Part shown: positions 17,494 through 31,113 of the stretch, one piece after another
Numbering within the stretch: position 1 is the first letter of the stretch
Layout of the letters: each line of letters starts with the position of its first letter
From: a phage
Assembly (NCBI GenBank): GCA_036252695.1
Contig: GCA_036252695.1_4122.1
Reading direction: 5' to 3' (one strand)
DNA length: 64,000 nt
The notes under the pieces: generated by a model
The model's database searches: none
Seen by the model: the letters and a program-made list of their open reading frames with translations, nothing else
What the model was told of the DNA's origin: nothing
Translations under genes and position numbers: made by a program

Positions 17494-17516
17494 TAACTTT
17501 GCAGTACTAACAACAC

Positions 17517-17542: not shown

Positions 17543-17555
17543 TAGGATAAACAAA

Positions 17556-17810: not shown

Positions 17811-17835
17811 CAGTACTCAAATGTTTTAGTATTAT
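17807..17835 (+). promoter_or_regulatory. sigma70 promoter
   Basis: -35 TTGACA 17807-17812, -10 TATTAT 17830-17835; module duplicated at 18088. Confidence 0.65.
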
Positions 17836-17868
17836 GTATCTATACCAACACAGAGAGAGAGAAACAAA

Positions 17869-18087
17869 ATGAAATTATCTAAAATCGAAAAGAAAACTAT
17901 TGATGAAGCAGTGAAGCACGGTTATACCTTTCGTAATGATTCACACTTCACTAGTTTTCAACAGGGAAACCGTACCATCAAAAAACTCATTGATAAAGGT
18001 TTACTCACTAAGGTTGATAACGGGAACGGTGTAGAATATCAACCGACAGAAGACGCATTATCACTAAAGAAATATTCTATTATCTAA
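17869..18087 (+). CDS. hypothetical protein
   Basis: RBS agagagaga; ORF track. Confidence 0.6.
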   Translation: MKLSKIEKKTIDEAVKHGYTFRNDSHFTSFQQGNRTIKKLIDKGLLTKVDNGNGVEYQPTEDALSLKKYSII

Positions 18088-18116
18088 TTGACAGTACTCA
18101 AATGTTTTAGTACTAT
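18088..18116 (+). promoter_or_regulatory. sigma70 promoter
   Basis: -35 TTGACA 18088-18093, -10 TACTAT 18111-18116. Confidence 0.6.
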
Positions 18117-18144
18117 GTACGCATACCAACACGGGGAAAACAAA

Positions 18145-18387
18145 ATGATTACTTTAGAAAAACGTATCAAAGAGACTACAACGCTGGTGGAACTGTTAAC
18201 CGTTCTTAAATGCCGGGTAACTCCATTCAGTACACCGGACTTTATCAACATGGTGGACGTTAACGGTCGATATCGTATTGCGGTCGAACAAGGTACGGCA
18301 AAAGTATTCAGTACTAAAAATACGCGTGAAGTATTCCACGCAGTTCAAGTAAAAAAAGTAGTTGCCATTGATAGTAAAGTACTGTAA
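18145..18387 (+). CDS. hypothetical protein
   Basis: ATG 18145 after acggggaaaacaaa RBS region. Confidence 0.55.
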   Translation: MITLEKRIKETTTLVELLTVLKCRVTPFSTPDFINMVDVNGRYRIAVEQGTAKVFSTKNTREVFHAVQVKKVVAIDSKVL

Positions 18388-18418
18388 TATAGTTTCATTA
18401 ACTCAAGGAGTCAACACA

Positions 18419-19003
18419 ATGCGTAACTATACTAAATTCATCCGTTCACTTCATGCAATGGAAACCAACAAAGAGATCCTTTCAGCTTGTCGGTTAGCTG
18501 GACTGGAGATCGTCGGTGCGGGTTCTTCCCGTATTGTATTCGCTTTAAATGATCGGTTAGTGATTAAGGTCGCGAATTGTGATGCGGGTGTAGAACAAAA
18601 TGAAACTGAATGTAAGGTATGGAATTTTTTAGATTATGACCGTCCGCACCTTAAACAGTACTTTGCTAAAGTGCATATGCATTTATGCGATCCTGATAAT
18701 CTGTTTATTGTTATGGATCGTTTGAGTACTGCAAGCAAAGGCAGTGTAAAGCATGTAAACGCGTGCAATGAGTTAAAGTACAATATTAAACGTAATACGG
18801 TAGAACGCCATCACCATTTCGCTGATGCTCTCAATCACGTTGATGATACATTATCCACACTAACGATAAGAGATATCAGAAAACAGAATATCGGCCAGGA
18901 TCGCAACGGCTTGATTAAAGTACTTGATTACGGTTTAACCCGCAATATCTGGAATCAGTACTATAAAAAACGTGATGTTAACGCGATAACTATAACACGA
19001 TAA
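18419..19003 (+). CDS. putative minimal Ser/Thr protein-kinase-like protein
   Basis: Gly-rich loop GAGSSRIVF, VIKV lysine, catalytic-loop-like IRDIRKQNI, DFG-like LDYG; RBS aaggag. Confidence 0.45.
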   Translation: MRNYTKFIRSLHAMETNKEILSACRLAGLEIVGAGSSRIVFALNDRLVIKVANCDAGVEQNETECKVWNFLDYDRPHLKQYFAKVHMHLCDPDNLFIVMDRLSTASKGSVKHVNACNELKYNIKRNTVERHHHFADALNHVDDTLSTLTIRDIRKQNIGQDRNGLIKVLDYGLTRNIWNQYYKKRDVNAITITR

Positions 19004-19011
19004 AAAAGATT

Positions 19012-19205
19012 AAAAAAGGGATTGACTCCAGTCAGTCCCTTTGCTATTATATATTCATTGAGAGATAACTCACTGACCCATAGGGTGCGGAAGTGTATCT
19101 ATTATATAAGTATTCAGTACTGAAAACTATTTTATAAAAAGTACTTGCAAACTATCTCAATGAGCGTATAATGTTTTATATCGAGAGGGGGAAATGGTTC
19201 TCCCT
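19012..19205 (+). repeat. dispersed ~190-bp intergenic module (near-identical to 11717-11910)
   Basis: Same hairpin/promoter, acccatagggtgcgg box and promoter cassette. Confidence 0.85.
19145..19205 (+). promoter_or_regulatory. sigma70 promoter + 5' stem-loop cassette
   Basis: -35 TTGCAA 19145-19150, -10 TATAAT 19167-19172, hairpin agggggaaatggttctccct. Confidence 0.75.
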
Positions 19206-19227
19206 GGTACTAAAAGGAATCAAGACG

Positions 19228-19449
19228 ATGACTACTATGACATGCGTTCACGCTTCAAATCTTCTGAATGATGCAGCATTTAAAGCAGGTGAAGAATATC
19301 AATGCTATCGGGATGAAAATAAAAAAGTTTTCGTCGTTGATGCTAACGGTTTCCATATTGAATTACAATCCGGCTTCACTGGTGTTGATGGTAAATCAGT
19401 ATGGGGCGTACAGGATGATAACGGTACATATCATTTTAAACGTAATTAA
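19228..19449 (+). CDS. hypothetical early protein
   Basis: RBS aaaagga; ATG 19228. Confidence 0.6.
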   Translation: MTTMTCVHASNLLNDAAFKAGEEYQCYRDENKKVFVVDANGFHIELQSGFTGVDGKSVWGVQDDNGTYHFKRN

Positions 19450-19452
19450 GTA

Positions 19453-19511
19453 TTGACAAAGTATATCAGTACTGTATAATAGTTTACATCAAGGGGAGAA
19501 TAGCTCTCCCC
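19453..19511 (+). promoter_or_regulatory. sigma70 promoter + 5' stem-loop cassette
   Basis: -35 TTGACA 19453-19458, -10 TATAAT 19475-19480, hairpin ggggagaatagctctcccc. Confidence 0.75.
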
Positions 19512-19533
19512 ACCAATAAAAGGAAACAAAATT

Positions 19534-19806
19534 ATGTCCAGCTACTCCGCTACTATGATTATTAAAGATATGAACGGTAATCCTACTTCTGCTGGTGGAT
19601 CATTTGGTAACATTAATTTAGATGGGCGGTTATCAATTGAATCAGCCATCAATGCAGCGAAAGAAGTTTTTAAGAATGAATGTACTGTAAGCAAACTGGA
19701 TTATATGGGCTTCGCTATCGAGAAAACTAATCGTTTTGTGGACTACAAAAAACCACTGATGATTGATACTAACCTGAAAGCAAACGAAGTGGAATACTTA
19801 TTATGA
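19534..19806 (+). CDS. hypothetical early protein
   Basis: RBS aaaggaaa; ORF track. Confidence 0.65.
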   Translation: MSSYSATMIIKDMNGNPTSAGGSFGNINLDGRLSIESAINAAKEVFKNECTVSKLDYMGFAIEKTNRFVDYKKPLMIDTNLKANEVEYLL

Positions 19807-19994
19807 CAGTAGAAGAAGTTAAAAAAGTACTGGCAGTACTACGCTATCATAATCATTGTAAGGTGAAGAATGATCCTGATTATCTTGATTCATCGCTGGA
19901 AGAGGATACACTACAAGCAATAAGCCATATGCAAAAAATGCTTAAGCGTATGACCGAAAAGAACAGGCCGGACTATATCGGAAATAAAATTTAA
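19803..19994 (+). CDS. hypothetical protein
   Basis: ATGA start/stop overlap with upstream gene. Confidence 0.5.
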   Translation: MTVEEVKKVLAVLRYHNHCKVKNDPDYLDSSLEEDTLQAISHMQKMLKRMTEKNRPDYIGNKI

Positions 19995-20001
19995 AAAGTA
20001 C

Positions 20002-20058
20002 TTGCATTGTAAGTAAAACAAAGTATAATGTTTTACATAGGGGGAGATATCCTCCCCC
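20002..20058 (+). promoter_or_regulatory. sigma70 promoter + 5' stem-loop cassette
   Basis: -35 TTGCAT 20002-20007, -10 TATAAT 20024-20029, hairpin gggggagatatcctccccc. Confidence 0.75.
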
Positions 20059-20077
20059 ACTAATAAGGAGTACTAAA

Positions 20078-20302
20078 ATGGCTAACTTTGATGAACTGAT
20101 GCGGGAAGTAGCTACCCTGGCAGAAGAGAAGAAATCATTTGATTCTATCTATAACACCGCTTACAGTGATTCAGTACTGGCATGTACTCAGGATCAAAAA
20201 GATGAACTGATCGCCACCTATCATGAAGCATGGAAGTATTACCGCCAATGGGAGAAAGAAGAAAGCGAGTCTACCATCAACGGCATCAATAATCTAATCT
20301 AA
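20078..20302 (+). CDS. hypothetical acidic protein
   Basis: RBS aaggag; ORF track. Confidence 0.65.
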   Translation: MANFDELMREVATLAEEKKSFDSIYNTAYSDSVLACTQDQKDELIATYHEAWKYYRQWEKEESESTINGINNLI

Positions 20303-20320
20303 AGTTTTATTTCAGTACTA

Positions 20321-20349
20321 TTGACAATGCGTGATAGTACTGATGTAAT
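20321..20349 (+). promoter_or_regulatory. sigma70 promoter
   Basis: -35 TTGACA 20321-20326, -10 TGTAAT 20344-20349. Confidence 0.55.
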
Positions 20350-20377
20350 AACTTTACTAACTACAAGGGGAAACATA

Positions 20378-20635
20378 ATGGAACAGTTCACACAATATCG
20401 GGTAAATCCTCAAGCTATGGCCTACGTAGAAGACCATAAAACATTACCAGTACAGACACCAATCAAAGGCCGTATCTATCGTGCTATGCAGTGGAATAAC
20501 GCCTATAATGGCTATAAAGCGGTAGCGGCTGCAATGTACTTAGGGGATGGCGAATGGTTTGATCCAAATAATCCTGGTGCACTAGATAGTACTGAACAAA
20601 TGACATGGGCCGACTATATCGAAGATATTTCATAA
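20378..20635 (+). CDS. hypothetical protein
   Basis: RBS aagggga; ATG 20378. Confidence 0.6.
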   Translation: MEQFTQYRVNPQAMAYVEDHKTLPVQTPIKGRIYRAMQWNNAYNGYKAVAAAMYLGDGEWFDPNNPGALDSTEQMTWADYIEDIS

Positions 20636-20642
20636 AAACTAT

Positions 20643-20703
20643 TTGACAGTACTACAAGATAATGTATAATGTTTTACATAGAGCGGGGGAATAGTTCTCC
20701 CGC
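20643..20703 (+). promoter_or_regulatory. sigma70 promoter + 5' stem-loop cassette
   Basis: -35 TTGACA 20643-20648, -10 TATAAT 20665-20670, hairpin gcgggggaatagttctcccgc. Confidence 0.75.
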
Positions 20704-20723
20704 ACCTTTAGGAGTAAAACATT

Positions 20724-20924
20724 ATGTCAATCGCTAACGAATTGGTTGCAGTACTGAATGAAGCAAAAGCCAACTGCATCGATGTACAGATCAAAGAGCT
20801 TGGCAATGGCTTGATCGGCTGTACTTGTACAGTGCAAACGGCTACCGATTATCGGGAAGTGGAATCACTCGAATCACTGGTACGGTATATTAAAATCCTG
20901 GTAGAAGATTGGAGAATCATCTAA
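20724..20924 (+). CDS. hypothetical protein
   Basis: RBS taggagt; ORF track. Confidence 0.6.
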   Translation: MSIANELVAVLNEAKANCIDVQIKELGNGLIGCTCTVQTATDYREVESLESLVRYIKILVEDWRII

Positions 20925-20940
20925 CAAAAAAGAATAAAAA

Positions 20941-21105
20941 AAAGGGATTGACTCCGGTCAGTCCCTTTGCTATTATATACGCATAGACAAAAACTAGCCC
21001 ACAGGGTGCAGAGAAGTATCTATAAGATAGTTAATAACGGTGAGTAACTATCTGCTGGTGGATGTAATGCCAGTACTCAAAACTATTTCAAAAAAAGTAT
21101 TGACA
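20941..21105 (+). repeat. dispersed intergenic module (copy similar to 15725-15900)
   Basis: aaagggattgactccggtcagtccctttgctattatatacgcatag + agcccacagggtgc. Confidence 0.85.
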
Positions 21106-21127
21106 AAGTATATCAGTACTGAGATAA
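21100..21127 (+). promoter_or_regulatory. sigma70 promoter
   Basis: -35 TTGACA 21100-21105, -10 GATAAT 21122-21127; module duplicated at 21417. Confidence 0.65.
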
Positions 21128-21182
21128 TGTATCTCGTAGGGCGGCAATAGTGCAGCCCACCTCCAAAAGAGCGAGATATAAA

Positions 21183-21398
21183 ATGGCGTTAACCAAACAA
21201 GAAATTATCGACCGTATCAAAGAGTCAACTGGCTGGTATGTTGGGGACCGTTTAATTGTTAAAGTTCTCGATTATTCAAATAATCCTCTTGCACCGGAAC
21301 CAGTGGCATACAAATTATCCTGGATATCTGCGTTTAGCGGTAAGCGTGAAAGATGTGTGTACTATCCGAACACAGTCGGGCTACAGTTCTGTAAATAA
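21183..21398 (+). CDS. hypothetical protein
   Basis: ATG 21183; ORF track frame. Confidence 0.55.
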   Translation: MALTKQEIIDRIKESTGWYVGDRLIVKVLDYSNNPLAPEPVAYKLSWISAFSGKRERCVYYPNTVGLQFCK

Positions 21399-21416
21399 AT
21401 TTTAATAGAAAAAGTA

Positions 21417-21445
21417 TTGACAAAGTATATCAGTACTGCAATAAT
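21417..21445 (+). promoter_or_regulatory. sigma70 promoter
   Basis: -35 TTGACA 21417-21422, -10 AATAAT 21440-21445. Confidence 0.6.
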
Positions 21446-21498
21446 GTATCTCGTAGGGCGGCAATGGTGCGACGGCCCACAAAGTTAGGAGATTCACC

Positions 21499-21825
21499 AT
21501 GAGTACTTCAATCGCTATCGTTAAAGCTTTCATCCGTACCAATTTCGACCGCATTACTGTTGATGGTAATGATCGGGAAGTAGAATACTCTTTCATTGTT
21601 GCACAAACCGCAAACGGTGCACGCTATATCTTAAACGATAGTGAAGCTAACCACTACTTCTATAATAAAGGATTACACTACATCCCTAGCGAAGTAGTCT
21701 ACAGTAAGATGAATAAGCTGGTAGACAAGATTAACGCTAAAGGTACTATCGATTTACAGTACTGGACCGAAACCGATCCAGAATACGGATCACATCGTTA
21801 CCTGAATCCAGGAATTAAAATGTAA
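21499..21825 (+). CDS. hypothetical protein
   Basis: RBS taggaga; ORF track. Confidence 0.65.
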   Translation: MSTSIAIVKAFIRTNFDRITVDGNDREVEYSFIVAQTANGARYILNDSEANHYFYNKGLHYIPSEVVYSKMNKLVDKINAKGTIDLQYWTETDPEYGSHRYLNPGIKM

Positions 21826-21833
21826 AAAGTACT

Positions 21834-21894
21834 TGCATTGTACTTAGAATCAAGTATAATGTTTTACATAGAGAGGGGGAAATGGTTCTCCCTC
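21834..21894 (+). promoter_or_regulatory. sigma70 promoter + 5' stem-loop cassette
   Basis: -35 TTGCAT 21834-21839, -10 TATAAT 21855-21860, hairpin gagggggaaatggttctccctc; same promoter sequence as 15864. Confidence 0.75.
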
Positions 21895-21914
21895 CTAAAT
21901 TAAGGAGTTTTATC

Positions 21915-22316
21915 ATGACCTTCTCAATCACTTCCTTCGCTGACGTTTTAGTACTGGCTCGGACTTTTGGTAAAGATGCACTGGAGTACGCTGTAAGTAA
22001 TGGCACTCTCCAACCGGAACAATGCCGCATCATTGGAAACTGCAAACGTTGGGCGGTATCCAATACTATTGCACTAGAAAACTTCAACGATGGTAACAAT
22101 GAGTATTCAGTTGATGCAGTATTCGAAGCCGTTGATCTTGGCGGTATCTATAACACTAACCTAAATGATGTGCGTATCGTTCGCACGGGGTTCGGTGCTT
22201 ATGATGTATCTATCCGTGAAGCTATGAACACCGGATACATTAGTAAGGACTTACTTGCTCACATCATGCAGCTATGGACGGAACGTAACGAAGCACGCAC
22301 TATCTTAGGGCTGTAA
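21915..22316 (+). CDS. hypothetical protein (133 aa)
   Basis: RBS taaggag; ATG 21915. Confidence 0.65.
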   Translation: MTFSITSFADVLVLARTFGKDALEYAVSNGTLQPEQCRIIGNCKRWAVSNTIALENFNDGNNEYSVDAVFEAVDLGGIYNTNLNDVRIVRTGFGAYDVSIREAMNTGYISKDLLAHIMQLWTERNEARTILGL

Positions 22317-22340
22317 GCATTACACATCACCAAACATCAT

Positions 22341-22360
22341 AGGCCGCTCTCTAGCGGCCT
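22341..22360 (+). terminator. hairpin, possible weak terminator
   Basis: aggccgctctctagcggcct; no T tract. Confidence 0.3.
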
Positions 22361-22384
22361 TAACTATATCAGGAGGGCATACAT

Positions 22385-22594
22385 ATGTTCTATACAGTAT
22401 ACAGCGTTCTAGGTACTATTGCTGGCGTACATGATAACGTCAGTGATGCTATGCGTACAGTACTGCAACAGGTTCCACTAAAGCCTAAGACTGTTAAGCA
22501 GATGACAGCACGACTAACCAGGGCGACGGATGGCGTGGAAGTATGGCAGGACTACGGGGATACACAGATAATCGTTAGCGTAACGAAGGATTAA
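22385..22594 (+). CDS. hypothetical protein
   Basis: RBS aggaggg; ORF track. Confidence 0.6.
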   Translation: MFYTVYSVLGTIAGVHDNVSDAMRTVLQQVPLKPKTVKQMTARLTRATDGVEVWQDYGDTQIIVSVTKD

Positions 22595-22625
22595 TGCGTA
22601 AAGGGATCTAGTACTGATTCAGAAA

Positions 22626-22690
22626 AAAGTCAAGGCGTTTTTAAAATAATGCGTTAAAAAAATGCATAGGTAATCCCTTGACTTTTTTAA
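22626..22690. repeat. inverted repeat at the compositional boundary
   Basis: aaaaagtcaagg 22626.. and reverse complement ccttgacttttt ..22690, ~35-nt loop. Confidence 0.6.
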
Positions 22691-22785
22691 AATAAAAGGG
22701 ATTGGACTATGGCAAAATGCGTAGGGGGCTAAAGGGCGGGTAACCTTAGCGACTTCGATAAAGGGGTATTACGAATAAAATGTTA

Positions 22786-22813
22786 TTGACTTTTTATACA
22801 ATTCATATATTAT
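22786..22813 (+). promoter_or_regulatory. sigma70 promoter at head of the LGTNYQ-family array
   Basis: -35 TTGACT 22786-22791, -10 TATTAT 22808-22813. Confidence 0.55.
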
Positions 22814-22843
22814 ATGATTGATATTATTTTCAAGGGAGTCCCT

Positions 22844-23041
22844 ATGCGTATTTTAACTCAAGCAGAACACCACGAAAGACTTATCAATAACATGGCTATG
22901 ATAATGTATAAGTCACATGACCGTGGTATTGCCTATAAGCGTGAATTAATTATGGCACTATTCATTGGGACTAACTATCAGGAAAGGTATGTCAAGGATT
23001 GGATTTGGTATTTAATTGAAGATGTAACGAGTAAACTATGA
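22844..23041 (+). CDS. LGTNYQ-family small protein (A1)
   Basis: RBS caaggga; motif FIGTNYQERYV. Confidence 0.6.
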   Translation: MRILTQAEHHERLINNMAMIMYKSHDRGIAYKRELIMALFIGTNYQERYVKDWIWYLIEDVTSKL

Positions 23042-23238
23042 AAATGCGTAAATTAACCGAAAAAGAATATCAAGCACTGTTACGTAAAAACTTCACAAAG
23101 ATTTATAATACAGACTCACACGTAGAACGAATGGAGTTATACCTTTTGATTACATTGGGAACTAACTATCAGGATGCATGGGTAACGAAATATGTGGATA
23201 CATTGAAAAATGAAATTTTGTCCACGAGGAAACAATGA
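23038..23238 (+). CDS. LGTNYQ-family small protein (A2)
   Basis: ATGA coupling; TLGTNYQDAWV. Confidence 0.6.
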   Translation: MKMRKLTEKEYQALLRKNFTKIYNTDSHVERMELYLLITLGTNYQDAWVTKYVDTLKNEILSTRKQ

Positions 23239-23444
23239 AAACTATAACACGAACCCAATCATACGGTCTTATCTTGAAATACATGGACTTAATGGTGGAT
23301 ATCAGCAAAGACCTTCCTAAAACTGAAATTGAAGTTGCAAGAGCAGAGATCCGTATGTTGGCTGTACTGAACACAAACCATCAGGAAGAGTATGTTCAAG
23401 ATTGGATTCGATTTTTAATAGAAGATATTAAGAGTAAACTATGA
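23235..23444 (+). CDS. LGTNYQ-family small protein (A3)
   Basis: ATGA coupling; VLNTNHQEEYV. Confidence 0.6.
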   Translation: MKTITRTQSYGLILKYMDLMVDISKDLPKTEIEVARAEIRMLAVLNTNHQEEYVQDWIRFLIEDIKSKL

Positions 23445-23653
23445 TTATATTAACACCTGAAGAATATAAGAAACGTTTTAAATCTGTCCAGGCTGAAATA
23501 TTACTTATATACCTTTCAAATGCAGATCTTAACTTATCAAGGGTAATGGAGAAGGATTTACTTATGGGTGCATTTTTGGATACAGACTTTCAGGAGTATT
23601 ATGTAGGAGAATACTTTATTGCACTTCAGAACCACATTAAGAGTAAACTATGA
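23441..23653 (+). CDS. LGTNYQ-family small protein (A4)
   Basis: ATGA coupling; FLDTDFQEYYV. Confidence 0.6.
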   Translation: MIILTPEEYKKRFKSVQAEILLIYLSNADLNLSRVMEKDLLMGAFLDTDFQEYYVGEYFIALQNHIKSKL

Positions 23654-23865
23654 TTATTCTAGAAAAATCATATCAATATACTGAACGCATCGCTGCCAGA
23701 CAACTTGAAATCCTCATAATATACGAAGAGACTTCTGATTTAAACTTAGCCGAGGTATTGGAAAATGAAATACTTTTGGGTGCATTCTTGGGAACAGACT
23801 ATCAGGAGTATTATGAGGAAAAGTATTTGTCATCTCTTGAGAAATACGTCAGGAGCAAACTATGA
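23650..23865 (+). CDS. LGTNYQ-family small protein (A5)
   Basis: ATGA coupling; FLGTDYQEYYE. Confidence 0.6.
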   Translation: MIILEKSYQYTERIAARQLEILIIYEETSDLNLAEVLENEILLGAFLGTDYQEYYEEKYLSSLEKYVRSKL

Positions 23866-24089
23866 AACATTTAAGTAATATAGAGAAGAATAAAATTATC
23901 ATTGCTGTAATAAACAAATATTTTACACTTCCACAAAAAGAATGTTTATCTATAAGGGAACACAGGATAAACACCACCGAGATTCGCATGTTGGCTGTAC
24001 TGGGGACTAACTTCCAAGAAGGCTATGTTCATGAGCACATCGTTGCACTCACTAATTACATAATGGACAAATGTAATGAACATCATTAA
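23862..24089 (+). CDS. LGTNYQ-family small protein (A6)
   Basis: ATGA coupling; VLGTNFQEGYV. Confidence 0.6.
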   Translation: MKHLSNIEKNKIIIAVINKYFTLPQKECLSIREHRINTTEIRMLAVLGTNFQEGYVHEHIVALTNYIMDKCNEHH

Positions 24090-24300
24090 TAACTTTGAAT
24101 ACGAGGCCCGTGCTAAGAGTGCCAGAAAAAAAGAGAACACCATTTACTTCACTATGATGTACTTACAATGGACTGAAATTGAAGAAAAGGTTGCTGAAGT
24201 ATGGATGTTGGAATTCATGGGGACGCAGTATCAGAATAGGTTTGCGGGTGAGTATATCAATGTTCTTATGAAACAAATAGAAAGAAAGGAAAAGAACTAA
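24076..24300 (+). CDS. LGTNYQ-family small protein (A7)
   Basis: FMGTQYQNRFA. Confidence 0.55.
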   Translation: MNIINNFEYEARAKSARKKENTIYFTMMYLQWTEIEEKVAEVWMLEFMGTQYQNRFAGEYINVLMKQIERKEKN

Positions 24301-24458
24301 TGGTTTTCATTAACATATCTGACCAACTCGATACTAAACTAAAAGTCGAGCAGAGTGAGGGATGGATGCTGTACTTTCTTGGAACTTCTCATCAGAATTT
24401 TTATGTCCATGAACACATAGTTGCACTCACAAATCTAATAAGGGATAAATGTAAATGA
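24300..24458 (+). CDS. LGTNYQ-family small protein (A8, 52 aa; not in ORF track)
   Basis: TAATG overlap; FLGTSHQNFYVHEHIVALTNLI. Confidence 0.5.
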   Translation: MVFINISDQLDTKLKVEQSEGWMLYFLGTSHQNFYVHEHIVALTNLIRDKCK

Positions 24459-24712
24459 AACACTTGACGAACGATGAATATTCACTTAGAATTCGAAAGC
24501 TCACCCCAGAAGCAAGACTAATCTACGATGACGGTGAACTTTCATGGAACGAGATGAAAGTTAAAGTTCATGAGCTATGGTTGCTGTACTTTGTGGGAAC
24601 CCAATATCAAGAGAAATATTGTACCGATTATCTTGAACAACTAATGGATCTTATACAGATAAAACTAAATGAACGAATTGTGGAAAAATATGAAGACTTT
24701 ATCAAGCACTGA
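24455..24712 (+). CDS. LGTNYQ-family small protein (A9)
   Basis: ATGA coupling; FVGTQYQEKYC. Confidence 0.55.
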   Translation: MKHLTNDEYSLRIRKLTPEARLIYDDGELSWNEMKVKVHELWLLYFVGTQYQEKYCTDYLEQLMDLIQIKLNERIVEKYEDFIKH

Positions 24713-24941
24713 GTATCAGACTGCCCTCTTCTCTCTTCTTAACACCCTTAGAAAAAACTATGCATTACATGGTGCACCTGAATTGGATGTTATCAACGGT
24801 GATGTTTATCTTATGAAATTCATTGGAACAAACTATCAAGAACTGTTCACTCAACGATATATCTCTGCACTGAGAAACGAAATATCAGATAAAACCCGCC
24901 AAGCCCAAAGAGAATGGAAGAGACAATGCAACAAAGACTAA
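24690..24941 (+). CDS. LGTNYQ-family small protein (A10)
   Basis: FIGTNYQELFT; start uncertain (24669 or 24690). Confidence 0.5.
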   Translation: MKTLSSTEYQTALFSLLNTLRKNYALHGAPELDVINGDVYLMKFIGTNYQELFTQRYISALRNEISDKTRQAQREWKRQCNKD

Positions 24942-25177
24942 ATCACAAAATGTATTTTAAACTATTACAGAATCTAGGACAAAAACACTATGATACAGTA
25001 TCTGAAATATTACCCTATGATATCATGCGTTTAATTCATAGTGAGGCAGAGATGCTTGTACTGATGACAGGCACTGATAAAACAGCAATTACCAAATCTA
25101 TAGATATGTTCATCGATGCACACTGCCAACACATTAGAACCGAGATATGGAGACGTGAGAATGAAAATCCTGACTGA
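24926..25177 (+). CDS. divergent member of the small-protein array (A11)
   Basis: LMTGTDKTAIT degenerate motif; start uncertain. Confidence 0.4.
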   Translation: MQQRLNHKMYFKLLQNLGQKHYDTVSEILPYDIMRLIHSEAEMLVLMTGTDKTAITKSIDMFIDAHCQHIRTEIWRRENENPD

Positions 25178-25376
25178 GCATGAGTATTACAATAGGTTAA
25201 GAACTATACAAGGAAAAGTCTCGTGGACTTTTTTAGATAATTCTATTGCAGAAGCGGACCGATGTGTTATAATAGCTGAAATGAAGCTATTACTCTTCAT
25301 TGGGACAAACTATCAAAGTATCTACATAGACGCATGGTTAAGCAGCTTACGTCTGAAGTCGGTGAGTTTAAAATGA
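25161..25376 (+). CDS. LGTNYQ-family small protein (A12)
   Basis: RBS ggagacg; FIGTNYQSIYI. Confidence 0.55.
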   Translation: MKILTEHEYYNRLRTIQGKVSWTFLDNSIAEADRCVIIAEMKLLLFIGTNYQSIYIDAWLSSLRLKSVSLK

Positions 25377-25591
25377 GAAAATTAATAGGTTTCGAATATG
25401 TTAAGCTTCTACAAACCTGTGGAATCAGAAGGAGAATGATTCAAAAGGATAAAAGAATTGCCGAAGAACGAAAGTATATAATGATAACTGAACTTTATGT
25501 CTTAACACTCTTAGGCACAAACTATCAACACACTTATGTAGACCTATGGATCGATGCACTACAGAAAGAGGTTAAAAGTAAATGCAAATGA
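25373..25591 (+). CDS. LGTNYQ-family small protein (A13)
   Basis: ATGA coupling; LLGTNYQHTYV. Confidence 0.6.
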   Translation: MRKLIGFEYVKLLQTCGIRRRMIQKDKRIAEERKYIMITELYVLTLLGTNYQHTYVDLWIDALQKEVKSKCK

Positions 25592-25800
25592 TTAATTTAA
25601 GTAAAGACGAATTTTATGTTATACTGGCGAAAACTTATCCAGCACGTAAGGCCGTTTATGATAGTCACATTATTGAACCCTCAAAGAAGTTGATTTTAGT
25701 AAATGAGATAAAGATGCTTTCAGTCTTAGGAACAAACTATCAAGAGAATGCTGTACTGTTGTTAATTGATGCCCTCAAGAGAGAGATACAAAGTAAATGA
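25582..25800 (+). CDS. LGTNYQ-family small protein (A14)
   Basis: VLGTNYQENAV. Confidence 0.6.
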   Translation: MQMINLSKDEFYVILAKTYPARKAVYDSHIIEPSKKLILVNEIKMLSVLGTNYQENAVLLLIDALKREIQSK

Positions 25801-26021
25801 TTAATTTAACTTACCATGAATATCAAAAACGTTTAAATGCATCCAGAGATATAAGGATTCAAATATTCAATAACAAAAGATTGAAGCCTGATATCAGGAA
25901 AATCAAAATCATAGAAGCAGAGTTGTGCAACTTTCTAGGGACGAACTATCAGGCAGGTAAGGTAAAAAACTATCTTAAAGAACTCATGAATAGTATTGAA
26001 AATAAATGTAAGGGTAATTAA
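25797..26021 (+). CDS. LGTNYQ-family small protein (A15)
   Basis: ATGA coupling; FLGTNYQAGKV. Confidence 0.6.
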   Translation: MINLTYHEYQKRLNASRDIRIQIFNNKRLKPDIRKIKIIEAELCNFLGTNYQAGKVKNYLKELMNSIENKCKGN

Positions 26022-26022
26022 C

Positions 26023-26289
26023 ATGAAAATGATCAATTTAAGTAAAGATGAATATAACGAGCGACGTGCAAAAATCTCAACTAAACGCACCGAAATCTAT
26101 TACAGCGAAGAAATCAAACACGACAAGAAGATGATTATGATACGTGAGTTGATAATGGGTGCTATGCTAGGAACTAACTATCAAGAACAAGAGGTACAAC
26201 TCGTATTAAATGAATTACTAATGGAAATCAGAGGTAAGCTGTACTTTCATCAAATGACCCGCCCACTAAGGTGTACTAGGAATGATTAA
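26023..26289 (+). CDS. LGTNYQ-family small protein (A16)
   Basis: MLGTNYQEQEV. Confidence 0.55.
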   Translation: MKMINLSKDEYNERRAKISTKRTEIYYSEEIKHDKKMIMIRELIMGAMLGTNYQEQEVQLVLNELLMEIRGKLYFHQMTRPLRCTRND

Positions 26290-26497
26290 CATCACATTAC
26301 AAGAAAGGTTCATACGCATCAACTATGCAATTTCCAAATTAGATGCTACAATAGGATTTCAAAGTCTACCATACAAAACCAGATTGTTATTAGAGTGTGA
26401 AGCTAAGTTGGGTGTACTGTTAGGGACGCAACACCAACAACGATATGTGGAAATCTGGATTGACCTTTTAACCCAAAATATATATGAGAGAATGTAA
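26282..26497 (+). CDS. LGTNYQ-family small protein (A17)
   Basis: LLGTQHQQRYV. Confidence 0.55.
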   Translation: MINITLQERFIRINYAISKLDATIGFQSLPYKTRLLLECEAKLGVLLGTQHQQRYVEIWIDLLTQNIYERM

Positions 26498-26728
26498 ATG
26501 CAAAATGAAATGATATACATAACGAATGAAGAATTTCAAGAGAAGATGTTAAAAACAAAAAACATTAATCTTAAGTTCGTTCCAAATCAATCAATATATG
26601 AAGTATCTGCAAATGTATTGTTTCAGAAGTTACCATACGTTCTTGGAACTGATAAACAAGAATTTATGGTTCAAAATATGATTGAACATCTTATGATGAG
26701 TATTAAGGAAAAAGTAAATGCAAAATGA
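26498..26728 (+). CDS. LGT..Q-family small protein (A18)
   Basis: YVLGTDKQEFMV; N-term MQNEMIY shared with A19. Confidence 0.55.
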   Translation: MQNEMIYITNEEFQEKMLKTKNINLKFVPNQSIYEVSANVLFQKLPYVLGTDKQEFMVQNMIEHLMMSIKEKVNAK

Positions 26729-26963
26729 AATGATATACTTAACATATAATGAATACGTCGAGAGATTAGTTAGTGCCAAGAGATATACAAATCAACTTCC
26801 TCACAACCCAAACCAAACCCCAGAGGAAAAGAATGCGGAAGCTCTATTCCAAGCACTACCATACCTTCTTGGAACTGATAGGCAGGAGTATCACGTTGAA
26901 CGTATAATTAAATCTCTTAAAATCACTATTAAGGAAAAGATACATGAAACACTTGACAGATGA
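26718..26963 (+). CDS. LGT..Q-family small protein (A19)
   Basis: YLLGTDRQEYHV. Confidence 0.55.
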   Translation: MQNEMIYLTYNEYVERLVSAKRYTNQLPHNPNQTPEEKNAEALFQALPYLLGTDRQEYHVERIIKSLKITIKEKIHETLDR

Positions 26964-27174
26964 TGAACATGGGCTTATAGTAATGGATGTAATCAACATC
27001 GAATACAAAAAGTTGATACGCTATCGTTGTTATGAAGATAAGCAACTAGTTCTAGCAGAACAGAAGTTGTTTCGACTCTTAAACACAAACTACCAAGCAC
27101 AATACGAAGAATCGTATATGTACCTTTTGGCGAGGAAAGCAAAAAGAGATTATGAAAATTTTAAGCAAAGGTGA
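26944..27174 (+). CDS. LGTNYQ-family small protein (A20)
   Basis: LLNTNYQAQYE. Confidence 0.55.
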   Translation: MKHLTDDEHGLIVMDVINIEYKKLIRYRCYEDKQLVLAEQKLFRLLNTNYQAQYEESYMYLLARKAKRDYENFKQR

Positions 27175-27373
27175 TTCAGTAATATTACTTATAGAGAGTT
27201 CAAGTAAATTCTTAAACATAACACTGTCTGATATAGATGAAGATGATAAAGAAGTACTGAGAGCAGATTTAAGAGTACTGTTACATCTCGGAACAAACCT
27301 ACAAGAAGAATATGTAGAGTACTACATTGATGAACTTAAAGAATCAGTACTGAGAAGATGCAAATGCGAATGA
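27152..27373 (+). CDS. LGTNYQ-family small protein (A21)
   Basis: HLGTNLQEEYV. Confidence 0.55.
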   Translation: MKILSKGDSVILLIESSSKFLNITLSDIDEDDKEVLRADLRVLLHLGTNLQEEYVEYYIDELKESVLRRCKCE

Positions 27374-27585
27374 TTACCGACGAAGAATACCTAACAATTA
27401 TAAATGGATTGTTTTTGAAGTTGTTTGTTATTAACACATCAGATATACCAGATATGGATAAAATTATTAAGAGAAATGAAATCTATGTTCAAGCTACACT
27501 AGGGACTAACTATCAAGAATGCAATATTAATGATTATATTAATACACTTAAACGAGCGATTGAACTAAAATGCCAAAACCACTAG
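27358..27585 (+). CDS. LGTNYQ-family small protein (A22)
   Basis: TLGTNYQECNI. Confidence 0.55.
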   Translation: MQMRMITDEEYLTIINGLFLKLFVINTSDIPDMDKIIKRNEIYVQATLGTNYQECNINDYINTLKRAIELKCQNH

Positions 27586-27785
27586 GAACAGCAGAATACA
27601 TTGAACTCATGGGATTACACTTCTCATCCTTTCAGAAACTTATGCGAGAATCAAAGAATGATTTAGAATATACCATCAGAGGTTCAGAATTAAGAATGCT
27701 TCTCACCCTAGACACAGATTCCCAAGAGAGATTTGTCAATGAGCATATTAGAGCACTTTTAATGGAAATTCAAAGTAAACTATGA
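27570..27785 (+). CDS. LGTNYQ-family small protein (A23)
   Basis: TLDTDSQERFV. Confidence 0.55.
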   Translation: MPKPLGTAEYIELMGLHFSSFQKLMRESKNDLEYTIRGSELRMLLTLDTDSQERFVNEHIRALLMEIQSKL

Positions 27786-27997
27786 AGATAATATCAAATC
27801 AAGAGTACTTGGCACTATTCAGGAAGAATAATCACAAATATATGGCACTTGATTCAAGAACTGATATAAGTGAACTTGAAAAAAATCTTTTGCGTTCAGA
27901 GATGATAGTACTGACACTCTTAGGAACACAGCATCAAGAAAGAACTGTTAATTCACACATAGAAATACTTAAGAAGCTTATACAGGAAAAGTTATGA
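27782..27997 (+). CDS. LGTNYQ-family small protein (A24)
   Basis: ATGA coupling; LLGTQHQERTV. Confidence 0.6.
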   Translation: MKIISNQEYLALFRKNNHKYMALDSRTDISELEKNLLRSEMIVLTLLGTQHQERTVNSHIEILKKLIQEKL

Positions 27998-28215
27998 GAA
28001 TCATAACACAACAAGATATGTTTAAGTTCACAAGGGATTATGCATCTGAATTTGATGCTATATTATCAAAAAGTTACAACAACCCTTATACAGAAGATGT
28101 ACACTACAATGAATTATGGGTGTATATACTTTTAGGTACAGATCATCAAGAGCAAGCCGTACAGAGGTATTTGAGTGCTTTAAGTACTGCTACTGCTAAT
28201 GGAGTATGTGTTTAA
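27994..28215 (+). CDS. LGTNYQ-family small protein (A25)
   Basis: ATGA coupling; LLGTDHQEQAV. Confidence 0.6.
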   Translation: MRIITQQDMFKFTRDYASEFDAILSKSYNNPYTEDVHYNELWVYILLGTDHQEQAVQRYLSALSTATANGVCV

Positions 28216-28216
28216 T

Positions 28217-28459
28217 ATGAAAGTACTGACAGAATTAGAAATGTATCATAGATTTAATAAGTACTATCATTTACTTAAACCTATACAGAGGATTAAGTGT
28301 CCCTTTGTAGTGAAACAGGTATTAATTTATGAGCATAAGTTATTTGTATCATTAGGTACGAATGAACAAGATTATTATTTGAAGTTGTACTTAATTACTT
28401 TAATTGAATTGATTAATTCCAAAACTCAGAAAGCGAAGAAATATAAAAATGAAAACTAA
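28217..28459 (+). CDS. LGTNYQ-family small protein (A26)
   Basis: RBS ggag; SLGTNEQDYYL. Confidence 0.55.
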   Translation: MKVLTELEMYHRFNKYYHLLKPIQRIKCPFVVKQVLIYEHKLFVSLGTNEQDYYLKLYLITLIELINSKTQKAKKYKNEN

Positions 28460-29557: not shown

Positions 29558-30367
29558 ATGAAATTTTTAACAGAATCTGAAGCAACCAATTTGATTATGA
29601 AAAAATTTAGTTCTGGTGATTTAAAGAAATCAGCATCTTACAAAGGTTCAGTTGCCTTGAGTTTATATCTTGGTACAAATTATCAGGAAGCAGCACAAGA
29701 GCAATATATTAATGCATTAAAGGAAGAGATTCGAGAAAAAATTAAAATTAATAAAGATTGCAGTACTGATTTTTCAATTGAAAAGTTATTGAATATGTTT
29801 GTCAATACAACAGAGACACCAAGAAAAGAAGATGTTGGTTTAGGTCATGTAAGTGATTTTATGTACGCAGCATATGAATCTTTAGTACAGACTGGGATTG
29901 CTAAATCTGTAATTGAAGTGCATCGTAAATTTGAAGAAGGTGATGAAATTAGACAATTAGTTAAAGATAAAGAAAATAAGATTGGTCGTTTATTTGTTAT
30001 TAAGGACAATGATAGTTCTTCATATATTTTGATTAATACAGATAAGACATTCAATTATTACAAGGATTTACATTATTATATGATTACCAATTACGGAATA
30101 TCCTATTTAAGAAGTAATTGGGAAGTTGAATATGTATTTTATTTTAACAAACATTCGCATGGTTCAACAAGAACAAAAGATTTATATGAGCAAGCATTAA
30201 TGATTGCTACGCCTAATGAAAATGGCATTTTCAGTAAAGATTACGATAAGGTATTGGAACGTTTAAAACACAGAGCTTCGTGCGGGACAATGCCGTGTGA
30301 TTATAGTATTACACAATACAATAAAAATTATCATTGTGGTGTTTTTAAGGAACAATATAAATCATGA
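29558..30367 (+). CDS. two-domain protein: N-terminal LGTNYQ module + ~200-aa C-terminal domain
   Basis: SLYLGTNYQEAAQEQYINALKEEIREKIK at residues ~35-65; 269 aa. Confidence 0.65.
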   Translation: MKFLTESEATNLIMKKFSSGDLKKSASYKGSVALSLYLGTNYQEAAQEQYINALKEEIREKIKINKDCSTDFSIEKLLNMFVNTTETPRKEDVGLGHVSDFMYAAYESLVQTGIAKSVIEVHRKFEEGDEIRQLVKDKENKIGRLFVIKDNDSSSYILINTDKTFNYYKDLHYYMITNYGISYLRSNWEVEYVFYFNKHSHGSTRTKDLYEQALMIATPNENGIFSKDYDKVLERLKHRASCGTMPCDYSITQYNKNYHCGVFKEQYKS

Positions 30368-30684
30368 AATTTAATATAGCAAAAACATCTAATGTATGTA
30401 TATTTGGTTATGCTGATGAGTTAGGTGATCTTGACATTCTATTGTACAAAAAGGATGGTGTTATGCATTTCAAGTACCAGGATGAAGAGGCAGACAATTA
30501 TCCTTTACCTAATTTAGTACAAATGCAGGAAGATGAATTATTCCAGTACAGCTTAGTATATGACATTGATATTTGCACGATGCCAGTACTAATTAATATT
30601 CAAAAAGTGATGCTCGATGTGTTTGATAGGCTAATACAAGGCACACAAGGAAGAACCATATATGTCAATGTACAAGACAATTAA
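30364..30684 (+). CDS. FQ-motif family protein (B)
   Basis: ATGA coupling; EDELFQYSLVYD. Confidence 0.55.
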   Translation: MKFNIAKTSNVCIFGYADELGDLDILLYKKDGVMHFKYQDEEADNYPLPNLVQMQEDELFQYSLVYDIDICTMPVLINIQKVMLDVFDRLIQGTQGRTIYVNVQDN

Positions 30685-30877
30685 TCAAGAATGGAAGACC
30701 CAAAAGTACAGGGAATTCAGTACTAGTTTAACAAAAGATGCATTGAATTTAAAAAGAACAGAGTTTGATATGTTTATTTTTCTTGGAACACGTTCACAGG
30801 AACAATACATTCATTATTATATAAGTTCATTGCGAACGGAGATCGTATGCAAAACACAGGGTATTATAAAAAAGTAA
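30662..30877 (+). CDS. LGT..Q-family small protein (A-like)
   Basis: FLGTRSQEQYI. Confidence 0.5.
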   Translation: MSMYKTINQEWKTQKYREFSTSLTKDALNLKRTEFDMFIFLGTRSQEQYIHYYISSLRTEIVCKTQGIIKK

Positions 30878-31113
30878 ACCAATATTTGTACGCTACAAAG
30901 TACAGGGATTTTTGTTTAAAGGGTGGTGATGAAGATTTTTCTTTGCGATTATCAGAATTTAATCTGTTATTTTATCTTGGTACATCGGAACAAGAAGAAA
31001 TGGCACAGAAATTTATCAAGCACCTTGAACAAAAAATTCATATGCAAATTTTGATGCTTAAGGTACATAATGAGATAAACAAATATGAACCCAACAATAG
31101 TACAGGATCTTAA
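30847..31113 (+). CDS. LGT..Q-family small protein (A-like)
   Basis: YLGTSEQEEMA. Confidence 0.5.
   Translation: MQNTGYYKKVNQYLYATKYRDFCLKGGDEDFSLRLSEFNLLFYLGTSEQEEMAQKFIKHLEQKIHMQILMLKVHNEINKYEPNNSTGS

What the first reader, a model, noticed from the sequence alone, without database searches (positions are those of the whole stretch)
22786..28459. Array of about 26 consecutive ~70-aa paralogs ending in an invariant LGTNYQE-type motif
Twenty-six back-to-back + strand genes, mostly joined by ATGA/TAATG stop-start overlaps, encode 52-90-aa proteins. Their N-terminal halves are almost unrelated, but each ends in (F/L)(L/I)GT(N/D/Q)(Y/H/F)Q(E)..(Y/F)(V/I)....(I/L)..L...I..K. Further copies sit at 30662, 30847, 43762 and 43958. 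This is a hyper-expanded, diversifying small-protein family on a conserved C-terminal scaffold, which is what anti-defence or host-takeover decoy repertoires tend to look like. I do not recognise the motif from any characterised family.
Basis: seen in the sequence. Interest (0 to 1): 0.9.

Follow-up and report, generated by a model that had tools for sequence, protein, structure and literature searches.

The report
Tandem small-protein family in jumbo coliphage
A giant E. coli phage carries about 30 old, individually conserved copies of a tiny three-helix protein of unknown function, 26 of them in one tightly packed operon at the inner edge of its terminal repeat, most likely a set of early host-binding proteins, though that role is untested.

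Summary
Window 22844-28459 holds 26 back-to-back + strand genes of 52-90 aa from one family. No other frame or strand matches the family HMM.

The window is an Asteriusvirus (121Q/PBECO4-like) jumbo coliphage. The family is phrog_4148 (unknown function), with no Pfam, NCBIfam, PADLOC or PDB relative.

AlphaFold gives one confident three-helix bundle domain (pLDDT 97.5). The N-terminal MKxLTxxEY strand is clasped to the LGT..Q loop, so the N-terminal half is not unrelated.

Paralogs are 30-48% identical. Each has a collinear ortholog (47-100%) in other Asteriusviruses under purifying selection (dN/dS 0.33-0.40), and no column exceeds 1.

The array starts about 40 bp inside the direct terminal repeat boundary, behind a conserved sigma-70-like promoter. 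Turkey5/JNE01-like phages have about 20 copies at the same place. Klebsiella RaK2/Muenster have 12-14 dispersed copies.

An early host-interaction binder repertoire is the best reading, but it is inferred. Hua et al. [quoted passage not shown]

The parts
1576..22746 (+). Direct terminal repeat (one copy), delimited by homology to phage fEgEco12. It is a dense early-type region upstream of the array.
   Evidence: fEgEco12 record position 1 aligns to window 1576. Its DTR end (20,993; PhageTerm plus restriction digests, PMC13070987) maps to about window 22746. 22 of the 32 near-consensus sigma-70 promoter matches on the + strand lie at or before 21417.
22786..22813 (+). Sigma-70-like promoter TTGACT-N16-TATTAT in front of the first array gene.
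   Evidence: Conserved in 121Q, Sharanji, fEgEco12 and Turkey3. PBECO4 has a different TTGACA-type site after an insertion.
22844..23041 (+). Family member 1 (65 aa; alternative start 22814).
   Evidence: HMM 67.7 bits; orthologs 58-97%.
23038..23238 (+). Family member 2 (66 aa).
23235..23444 (+). Family member 3 (69 aa; also phrog_28039).
23441..23653 (+). Family member 4 (70 aa).
23650..23865 (+). Family member 5 (71 aa, pI 4.4).
23862..24089 (+). Family member 6 (75 aa).
24076..24300 (+). Family member 7 (74 aa).
24300..24458 (+). Family member 8, truncated (52 aa). It lacks helix 1, and its C-terminal part is 83% identical in DNA to that of member 6.
24455..24712 (+). Family member 9 (85 aa), the protein modelled with AlphaFold.
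24669..24941 (+). Family member 10 (90 aa).
24926..25177 (+). Family member 11, an outlier (83 aa). It has MTGTDKT plus a 6-residue insertion and lacks the Q.
25161..25376 (+). Family member 12 (71 aa).
25373..25591 (+). Family member 13 (72 aa).
25582..25800 (+). Family member 14 (72 aa).
25797..26021 (+). Family member 15 (74 aa, pI 9.8).
26023..26289 (+). Family member 16 (88 aa).
26282..26497 (+). Family member 17 (71 aa).
26498..26728 (+). Family member 18 (76 aa).
26718..26963 (+). Family member 19 (81 aa). Its closest paralog is member 18 (47%).
26944..27174 (+). Family member 20 (76 aa). An internal promoter-like TTGACA-N17-TATAGT lies at 26953-26981.
27152..27373 (+). Family member 21 (73 aa).
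27358..27585 (+). Family member 22 (75 aa).
27570..27785 (+). Family member 23 (71 aa). It has a 68% reciprocal-best ortholog in Turkey5.
27782..27997 (+). Family member 24 (71 aa).
27994..28215 (+). Family member 25 (73 aa). dN/dS is 1.1-3.0 in four comparisons, but not significant.
28199..28459 (+). Family member 26 (86 aa), the last gene of the contiguous array.
29558..30367 (+). 269-aa fusion protein. Residues 1 to about 65 are the family domain. The C-terminal ~180 aa is a domain that is a standalone gene in Klebsiella phage RaK2 (RaK2_00380).
30662..30877 (+). Dispersed family member (71 aa).
   Evidence: E 2e-12.
30847..31113 (+). Dispersed family member (88 aa).
   Evidence: E 7e-7.
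43762..43980 (+). Dispersed family member (72 aa; has GS instead of GT).
43958..44149 (+). Dispersed family member (63 aa).
   Evidence: E 5e-11.

Best explanation
Shown:
- This is a genuine, old multigene family of about 70-aa soluble single-domain proteins (phrog_4148). It is confined to RaK2-like jumbo phages of Enterobacteriaceae.
- Each protein is predicted to be a three-helix bundle. Its first residues form a short strand clasped to the G-T-x-x-Q loop between helices 2 and 3.
- The conserved residues are the hydrophobic core, that clasp, and a T..E pair at the start of helix 1. Everything on the helix surfaces, including net charge (-7.5 to +7.6), differs between copies.
- The 26 genes form one gapless, overlapping unit that starts about 40 bp inside the inner boundary of the ~21-kb direct terminal repeat, directly behind a conserved sigma-70-type promoter.
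- Each copy is kept as a collinear ortholog across the genus under purifying selection. The copies are therefore non-redundant and functional.

Inferred:
- The operon is transcribed early by host RNA polymerase, together with the promoter-dense terminal repeat. The stop-start overlaps couple translation of the copies.
- The family acts as a repertoire of small cytoplasmic binder proteins. Each uses its own helical surface to bind and neutralise or redirect a different host (or host-defence, or competing-phage) macromolecule.
- In short, it is a host-takeover or counter-defence module built by duplicating one stable scaffold.
For: Reality and coding:
- HMM hits occur only in the 31 + strand frames.
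- dN/dS is 0.33-0.40. Nonsynonymous changes are strongly depleted in the two comparisons tested (Sharanji p=1e-19, fEgEco12 p=7e-28).

Fold:
- AlphaFold gives pLDDT 97.5 and pTM 0.81, with helices 6-24, 31-45 and 52-84 and a beta-bridge between residues 2 and 49.
- The same topology appears at pLDDT 88-98 (means of 10-residue blocks) in the N-terminal domain of the 269-aa member.
- It also appears in independent BFVD models of paralogs, with TM up to 0.93.

Scaffold versus surface:
- Conserved columns are M2, L5, T6, E9, Y10, E40, L41, L43, L47, G48, T49, Q52, Y55, Y59, I60, L63, I67 and K70, with heptad-like spacing. The other columns have entropy around 3 bits or more.
- pI ranges from 4.4 to 9.8.

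Non-redundancy:
- Paralogs are 30-48% identical, while positional orthologs are 47-100% identical in five other Asteriusviruses.
- About 10 collinear reciprocal-best orthologs exist in the Turkey5/JNE01 lineage.

Early context:
- A conserved promoter lies at 22786-22813.
- The DTR end maps to about 22746.
- There are 32 near-consensus sigma-70 sites on the + strand against 2.3 expected; 22 lie in the DTR, where 12 of the window's 14 perfect-consensus sites fall.
- In the related phage PA5oct, DTR genes are the highly transcribed early genes and growth depends on host RNAP (PMC7318152).
- The position after the DTR is conserved in Klebsiella phage Muenster, whose annotated DTR is 1-20030 and whose first member lies at about 20.2 kb.

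Other points:
- Not virion-associated: none of phAPEC6 gp467c-gp489c is among the 62 virion proteins found by mass spectrometry.
- Modular use: the domain is fused to another domain in 29558-30367, and it carries C-terminal extensions in RaK2_00362 and a Muenster member.
Against: - There is no direct evidence of expression timing, of any binding partner, or of any phenotype.
- There is no signature of positive or diversifying selection in orthologs, which arms-race proteins often show.
- dN/dS is only about 1.4-1.9 times that of neighbouring small early genes, which score 0.20-0.28.
- The array lies just outside the DTR rather than within it. Its own promoter is a 10/12 match, weaker than the many perfect DTR promoters.
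- Which genome end enters the cell first is unknown.
- The three-helix fold is generic, so the structure says nothing specific about function.
Confidence: 0.45

Rival explanations
1. The proteins are subunits that bind one another, or one common phage partner through the conserved N-terminus/loop clasp. They would form a hetero-oligomeric non-virion assembly or a set of adaptors. Translational coupling would then serve to make them in fixed ratios.
For: - The gapless overlapping operon suggests coupled, near-stoichiometric synthesis.
- One conserved face (MKxL strand plus GT..Q loop) is shared by all copies.
- The domain occurs fused to other early-region domains.
- Helical bundles commonly oligomerise (general knowledge).
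Against: - Copy number varies from 23 to 29 within the genus and from 12 to 21 in related genera. That is hard to reconcile with a fixed-stoichiometry assembly.
- The conserved residues are explained by fold maintenance alone.
- None of the array genes is listed among the 62 MS-detected virion proteins of phAPEC6.
- No co-folding test could be run.
Confidence: 0.12
2. They are small nucleic-acid-binding regulators (helix-turn-helix-like) that each recognise a different DNA or RNA site and reprogramme host or phage transcription.
For: - By eye, the C-terminal motif L-G-T-x-x-Q-E-x-x-V-x-x-H/Y-I-x-x-L-x-x-x-I-x-x-K-L resembles the LuxR/GerE or sigma region 4 pattern. This is my own reading and only a lead.
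- Three-helix size is compatible.
- Phage G has about 35 copies of a zinc ribbon that has been proposed to act as specific transcription factors (PMC7824862).
Against: - No HTH family hits in Pfam or NCBIfam.
- Helix 3 is 33 residues long and antiparallel to helix 2, which is not a recognition-helix geometry.
- Half the copies are acidic, with pI down to 4.4 and net charge to -7.5.
Confidence: 0.08
3. They are immunity or exclusion proteins aimed at competitors rather than at the host. Each copy would neutralise one variant of a polymorphic toxin, or an effector of related co-infecting phages, possibly the neighbouring expanded family famB.
For: - Arrays of paralogous small immunity genes are known next to polymorphic toxin loci (general knowledge).
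- A second expanded family (phrog_13866-like) fills 28-50 kb of the window, and the dispersed copies 29558, 30662, 30847, 43762 and 43958 are embedded in it.
- Mosaic dS (0 to 1.1 between adjacent genes of one genome pair) shows frequent recombination between co-infecting relatives.
Against: - The main array has 26 members with no interleaved partner gene, so there is no 1:1 pairing.
- famB has no recognisable toxin domain.
- Mosaicism is also present in the flanking genes.
Confidence: 0.12
4. The array is mostly evolutionary filler: relics of a tandem-duplication 'genome accordion' that enlarged the genome, with little present function.
For: - Hua et al. 2017 interpreted a tandem array in 121Q as evidence that jumbo genomes grew by tandem duplication (PMC5646251).
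- One copy is truncated (24300-24458).
- Copy number varies between isolates.
Against: - Purifying selection is significant on the pooled array genes in both comparisons tested.
- All copies keep intact frames.
- Order and orthology are conserved across genera despite only 30-48% paralog identity.
- There is no DNA-level repeat signal, so the duplications are ancient and the copies have been retained.
Confidence: 0.04

Closest known systems
phrog_4148 / phrog_28039 (PHROGs families of unknown function)
   Same: All tested window members match phrog_4148 over its full 74 positions (E 1e-9 to 6e-24). One subfamily also matches phrog_28039.
   Different: The PHROG entry is only a sequence cluster with no function, structure or description of the array.
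[quoted passage not shown] 2017, mBio, PMC5646251)
   Same: Same phage genus, and a large tandem array interpreted as the result of tandem duplication. It may be this family or the neighbouring famB.
   Different: It is a one-sentence remark that does not name the genes. The copies here are not 'very similar' (30-48% identity). No fold, position relative to the DTR, selection analysis or function was given.
Host-takeover modules in long terminal repeats of virulent phages (SPO1 gp37-gp60; T5 pre-early genes) and the early DTR genes of jumbo phage PA5oct
   Same: Clusters of many small genes at or next to long direct terminal repeats, read by host RNA polymerase from strong sigma-70/sigma-A-type promoters early in infection. 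SPO1 and T5 are from my own knowledge. PA5oct is from PMC7318152.
   Different: Those modules consist of unrelated genes, mostly each with its own promoter, and lie inside the repeat. Here there is one paralogous family in one overlapping operon just outside the repeat boundary.
Multigene families at the genome ends of large eukaryotic DNA viruses (ASFV MGF110/360/505; poxvirus Bcl-2-like and ankyrin families)
   Same: Tandem paralogs adjacent to terminal repeats, copy-number variation between isolates, and small helical scaffolds with highly diverged surfaces that each target a different host factor (my own knowledge).
   Different: The viruses, hosts and folds are unrelated. A host-range or immune-evasion role is demonstrated there and not here.
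Lineage-specific expansion of a zinc ribbon (~35 copies) in Bacillus phage G
   Same: A very large expansion of one small domain in a jumbo phage, of uncertain function (PMC7824862).
   Different: A different fold (Zn ribbon, proposed to bind DNA), host and phage lineage.
Three-helix-bundle binding modules (staphylococcal protein A / affibody, MIT and FAT domains)
   Same: Similar size and up-down-up helical topology, with a stable core and variable binding surfaces. MIT and FAT domains are among the best, though non-significant, Foldseek hits.
   Different: There is no sequence or significant structural relationship (E>=1.8). The N-terminal strand clasp is not a feature of those domains.

Membership tests
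phrog_4148 | Significant full-length match to the family profile | tested here: met
   All 10 tested proteins hit phrog_4148. The eight tandem-array members match near full length (E 4e-15 to 6e-24, profile positions 1-70/74). The fusion and dispersed copies score 1e-10 and 4e-9.
Any Pfam-A / NCBIfam family | Score above the curated cut-off | tested here: not met
   No family is shared by more than 1 of 31 members, and all scores are far below the cut-offs.
Helix-turn-helix regulators (LuxR/GerE, sigma-70 region 4) | HTH profile match and tri-helical HTH geometry with a short recognition helix | tested here: not met
Known defence-system components (PADLOC) | Match to a PADLOC model | tested here: not met
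   Only single-member, weak, mutually inconsistent hits.
Known anti-defence proteins (Acr, Ocr/Ard, Tad, Gad and others) | Sequence or structural homology to a characterised inhibitor | tested here: inconclusive
   No dedicated anti-defence library was available. The PDB sequence profile search gave 0 hits. PDB fold searches gave nothing significant: T4 Vs.4 appears only at E=5.2. BFVD returns only family members.
Terminal-repeat host-takeover module (SPO1/T5/PA5oct type) | Located inside the long direct terminal repeat | tested here: not met
   The DTR end maps to about window 22746, and the array promoter starts at 22786.
Terminal-repeat host-takeover module (SPO1/T5/PA5oct type) | Early transcription by host RNA polymerase | not testable with these tools
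   Only promoter-like sequence and analogy with PA5oct RNA-seq are available.
Virus multigene family at a genome terminus (ASFV MGF / poxvirus type) | Tandem paralogs next to the terminal repeat, with copy-number variation between isolates | tested here: met
   23-29 contiguous copies in six Asteriusviruses, about 20 in Turkey5, and 12-14 dispersed in Muenster and RaK2, always following the DTR.
Virus multigene family at a genome terminus (ASFV MGF / poxvirus type) | Demonstrated host-range or immune-evasion function | not testable with these tools
   Needs deletion mutants and host panels.

The most novel reading that the evidence does not exclude
The array is a natural library of about 30 'affibody-like' single-domain binders, each neutralising a different host defence or housekeeping factor. 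That would make it the largest single-family counter-defence or takeover repertoire known in any phage. Together with the neighbouring famB expansion, it would be a phage counterpart of the terminal multigene families of ASFV and poxviruses.
Probability: 0.25. Interest if true: 0.85.

Novelty: new member of a known kind. Interest (0 to 1): 0.5.

Why it matters
If the copies really are individual host-factor binders, one operon would give about 26 ready-made small inhibitors or probes of E. coli proteins or defence systems. Each is only about 70 aa on a stable, well-predicted scaffold, which suits pull-downs, structure work and engineering.

It would also show that phages, like large eukaryotic DNA viruses, build terminal multigene families by duplicating one scaffold. 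It would explain part of the 'dark' 80% of jumbo-phage genes.

Even without a function, the data show that about 6 kb of this genome is an ancient, selectively maintained expansion rather than recent filler. This qualifies the published 'genome growth by tandem duplication' remark.

Tried and rejected
- **Sequence-profile search of the PDB:** 0 hits at E<=10.
- **Fold searches:** only generic helical bundles in the PDB. Only family members in BFVD. afdb50 was not available.
- **Wider homolog searches:** 99 clusters among 1.84 billion representatives, and two word-indexed searches. The sampled members with named sources come only from RaK2-like phages (Asteriusvirus, the Turkey5/JNE01 lineage, Alcyoneusvirus). 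All hits are short proteins, and the 'Escherichia coli' hits sit on ~350-kb, phage-genome-sized contigs. No named cellular homolog and no informative domain fusion appeared.
- **Positive-selection test:** no HMM column with pN/pS>1. Gene 27994 has a ratio above 1 but p>=0.09.
- **Structure of the 269-aa fusion, to identify its C-terminal domain:** the N-terminal family domain is confident, but the C-terminal domain has pLDDT<50 and is unusable. Its only homologs are hypothetical proteins.
- **An apparent family hit in RaK2_00380** was an artefact. My broadened HMM had absorbed the C-terminal part of the fusion protein.
- **DNA-level tandem repeats:** none in the array. Only 50-90-nt patches of 60-85% identity at the conserved motif and at two shared C-terminal helices.
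- **Literature:** no paper mentions phrog_4148 or the 121Q gene tags. No Asteriusvirus transcriptome was found.

Full report
**1. What genome this is**

Megablast of the region against GenBank phages hits 36 records. Those listed are ~310-380-kb jumbo phages of Escherichia and Salmonella, including annotated Asteriusvirus members. 121Q is closest (95% identity over 86% of the region), and G17 and Sharanji reach 88% over 100%. Every overlapping feature in those records is 'hypothetical protein'. The fusion gene at 29558 is 100% identical to phage EC.P1.

**2. Checking the observation**

The ORF list shows the run of short + strand ORFs described. I built an HMM from the 26 proteins and searched all 963 six-frame stop-to-stop segments of the window.
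- The 26 array frames score E 1e-17 to 1e-26.
- Five further + strand frames score 1e-7 to 1e-12: 29558, 30662, 30847, 43762 and 43958.
- Nothing else scores better than E=0.012, and nothing on the - strand or in an alternative frame of the array scores.

Corrections to the description:
- The copy at 29558 is the N-terminal domain of a 269-aa protein and was missed.
- Only 12 of 25 junctions are ATGA or TAATG. The others overlap by 8-44 nt or abut, so all 25 are gapless.
- The motif is nearly invariant, not invariant. In alignment A1 only M1, T49, Q52 and L63 reach 90% of 31 sequences. In the HMM-column counts over 30 members, T, Q and L63 are each 29/30 and G is 26/30.
- The N-terminal half is not unrelated. 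M-(K/R/I)-x-L-T-x-x-E-Y and E40 are conserved.

**3. Family identity**

Pfam, NCBIfam and PADLOC give nothing consistent. A profile search of all PDB sequences gives no hit at E<=10. PHROGs places the proteins in phrog_4148, with the array members matching near full length, and one subgroup also in phrog_28039. Both are of unknown function.

A full HMMER scan of 1.84 billion representative proteins finds only 99 clusters at E<1e-3. Sampled members come from Asteriusviruses, Escherichia phage JNE01/Turkey5, and Klebsiella phages RaK2, K64-1 and Muenster. The hits labelled 'Escherichia coli' sit on ~350-kb contigs, the size of the phage genome. I found no named cellular homolog.

**4. Structure**

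AlphaFold2 on the paralog alignment gives pLDDT 97.5 and pTM 0.81 for the 85-aa member. The model has helices 6-24, 31-45 and 52-84, and a beta-bridge between residue 2 and T49.

The same topology comes back at pLDDT 88-98 (means of 10-residue blocks) for the N-terminal domain of the 269-aa member. It is also seen in independent BFVD models of paralogs (TM up to 0.93).

The 'LGTNYQE' motif therefore lies in the six-residue connection between helices 2 and 3, and the conserved N-terminal strand docks on it. T-x-x-E immediately before helix 1 has the form of a helix N-capping box; this last point is inference. The remaining conserved columns are hydrophobic with heptad-like spacing. This explains the conservation as fold maintenance, and I see no sign of a catalytic or ligand site.

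**5. Evolution**
- Paralogs in the window are 30-48% identical. Almost every one has a positional ortholog at 47-100% identity in 121Q, Sharanji, PBECO4, fEgEco12 and Turkey3, in the same order.
- The contiguous copy number is 26 here, 23 in 121Q, 28 in fEgEco12 and Turkey3, and 29 in Sharanji and PBECO4.
- The Turkey5/JNE01 lineage has about 20 tandem copies. About ten of these are collinear reciprocal best hits to window copies and are more similar across genomes than to their own paralogs.
- Klebsiella phages Muenster and RaK2 have 12-14 copies scattered in twos and threes over 15-18 kb.
- The expansion is therefore ancient. TRF finds no DNA-level tandem repeat in the array. Only two sub-genic patches of 81-83% identity show that C-terminal helices have occasionally been exchanged between copies.
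- Pooled Nei-Gojobori dN/dS is 0.33-0.40. Nonsynonymous changes are depleted at p=1e-19 (Sharanji) and 7e-28 (fEgEco12). Flanking small genes give 0.20-0.28.
- No alignment column has pN/pS>1. The single gene with a ratio above 1 (27994) is not significant.
- dS between adjacent genes of one genome pair ranges from 0 to 1.1. This shows recombinational mosaicism, which the flanks share.

**6. Genomic setting**

- Its position 1 aligns to window 1576, and its repeat end aligns to about 22746. By homology, the window holds one repeat copy at 1576-22746.
- The array promoter (TTGACT-N16-TATTAT, 22786-22813) starts 40 bp inside the unique region. It is conserved in five of six genomes.
- In Muenster the annotated repeat ends at 20,030 and the first family member lies at about 20.2 kb. 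Turkey5 has the same arrangement.
- The window carries 32 near-consensus sigma-70 promoters on the + strand against 2.3 expected. Twenty-two lie in the repeat, as do 12 of the 14 perfect-consensus sites.
- In the related phage PA5oct, the repeat genes are the highly transcribed early genes, and infection depends on host RNA polymerase (PMC7318152).
- No strong terminator-like site lies inside the array.
- None of the phAPEC6 array genes (gp467c-489c) is among its 62 virion proteins detected by mass spectrometry.

**7. Interpretation**

Shown: a real, ancient, selectively maintained, non-virion, single-domain family in one compact operon at the repeat boundary. The core is conserved and the surfaces differ widely (pI 4.4-9.8).

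Inferred: early expression by host polymerase, and a role as a repertoire of small binders against different host, defence or competitor targets.

The rivals are ranked lower, for the reasons given under rival explanations. They are a hetero-oligomeric assembly or adaptor set, nucleic-acid-binding regulators, immunity against competitor effectors, and non-functional filler.

**8. Comparison and novelty**

The kind of thing is known: terminal multigene families in large DNA viruses, early takeover modules in phage terminal repeats, and the ~35-copy zinc ribbon expansion in phage G (PMC7824862). Hua et al. [quoted passage not shown] They did not say which genes, and it could be this family or famB.

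I found no published account of the following for this family:
- its fold;
- that the copies are highly divergent rather than very similar;
- per-copy orthology and purifying selection;
- its fixed position at the repeat boundary across genera.

Function remains untested. I rate it a new member of a known kind, of moderate interest.

Noticed in passing
window 28449-50743 (e.g. 28449-28790, 29126-29449, 30364-30684, 32340-32669, 38781-39161, 39158-39517, 45994-46344, 48242-48655): A second expanded paralog family ('famB', about 105-190 aa; phrog_13866 and kin, unknown function, no Pfam). At least 20 + strand ORFs hit a 3-sequence HMM at E<0.01. The dispersed copies of the LGTNYQ family are embedded in it. 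Together the two families account for many of the ORFs in the ~28 kb after the terminal repeat.
   Followed up: partly
window 1576-22746: By homology to fEgEco12, this is one copy of the ~21-kb direct terminal repeat. Window 1-1575 then corresponds to the unique sequence that precedes the right repeat copy, so the source record is probably a collapsed or permuted assembly. The repeat carries 22 near-consensus sigma-70 promoters on the + strand, and 12 of the window's 14 perfect TTGACA-N16-18-TATAAT sites lie in it.
   Followed up: partly
window about 3642, 4310, 4867, 8638, 11828, 15306, 19134, 21821: Short intergenic elements of about 60-95 bp, 75-93% identical to each other, are repeated through the terminal repeat. 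They are probably reiterated promoter/leader cassettes in front of the small early genes.
   Followed up: no
window 22594-22735: The motif AATGCGTA / AAATGCGT occurs four times, including a 13-bp tandem TTAAAAAAATGCG x1.9 at 22641-22665. This lies in the non-coding stretch just before the inferred repeat boundary at about 22746. It could relate to end recognition or cutting, or to transcription.
   Followed up: no
window 29558-30367: This 269-aa protein fuses the family domain to a ~180-aa domain that is a standalone gene in Klebsiella phage RaK2 (RaK2_00380, 40% identity). The fusion is found only in EC.P1/UB-like phages. The C-terminal domain could not be modelled (pLDDT<50) and has no family assignment.
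   Followed up: partly
window 22970-23041 vs 23373-23444; 24024-24076 vs 24402-24454: The third-helix coding segments of otherwise dissimilar paralogs are 81-83% identical in DNA. This suggests occasional sub-genic exchange or partial duplication within the array. The 52-aa gene at 24300 looks like a partial copy of gene 23862.
   Followed up: partly
protein P0001 (ENA metagenome contig, 154 aa): A natural read-through fusion of two adjacent array members. Its second half is identical to window 26944-27174. It is either a real frameshift variant or an assembly error.
   Followed up: no
database hits P0005, P0006, P0010 and others: Many family members are deposited as 'Escherichia coli' proteins on ~340-360-kb contigs. 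This suggests that whole Asteriusvirus genomes are present in E. coli isolate assemblies, through a carrier state, pseudolysogeny or contamination.
   Followed up: no
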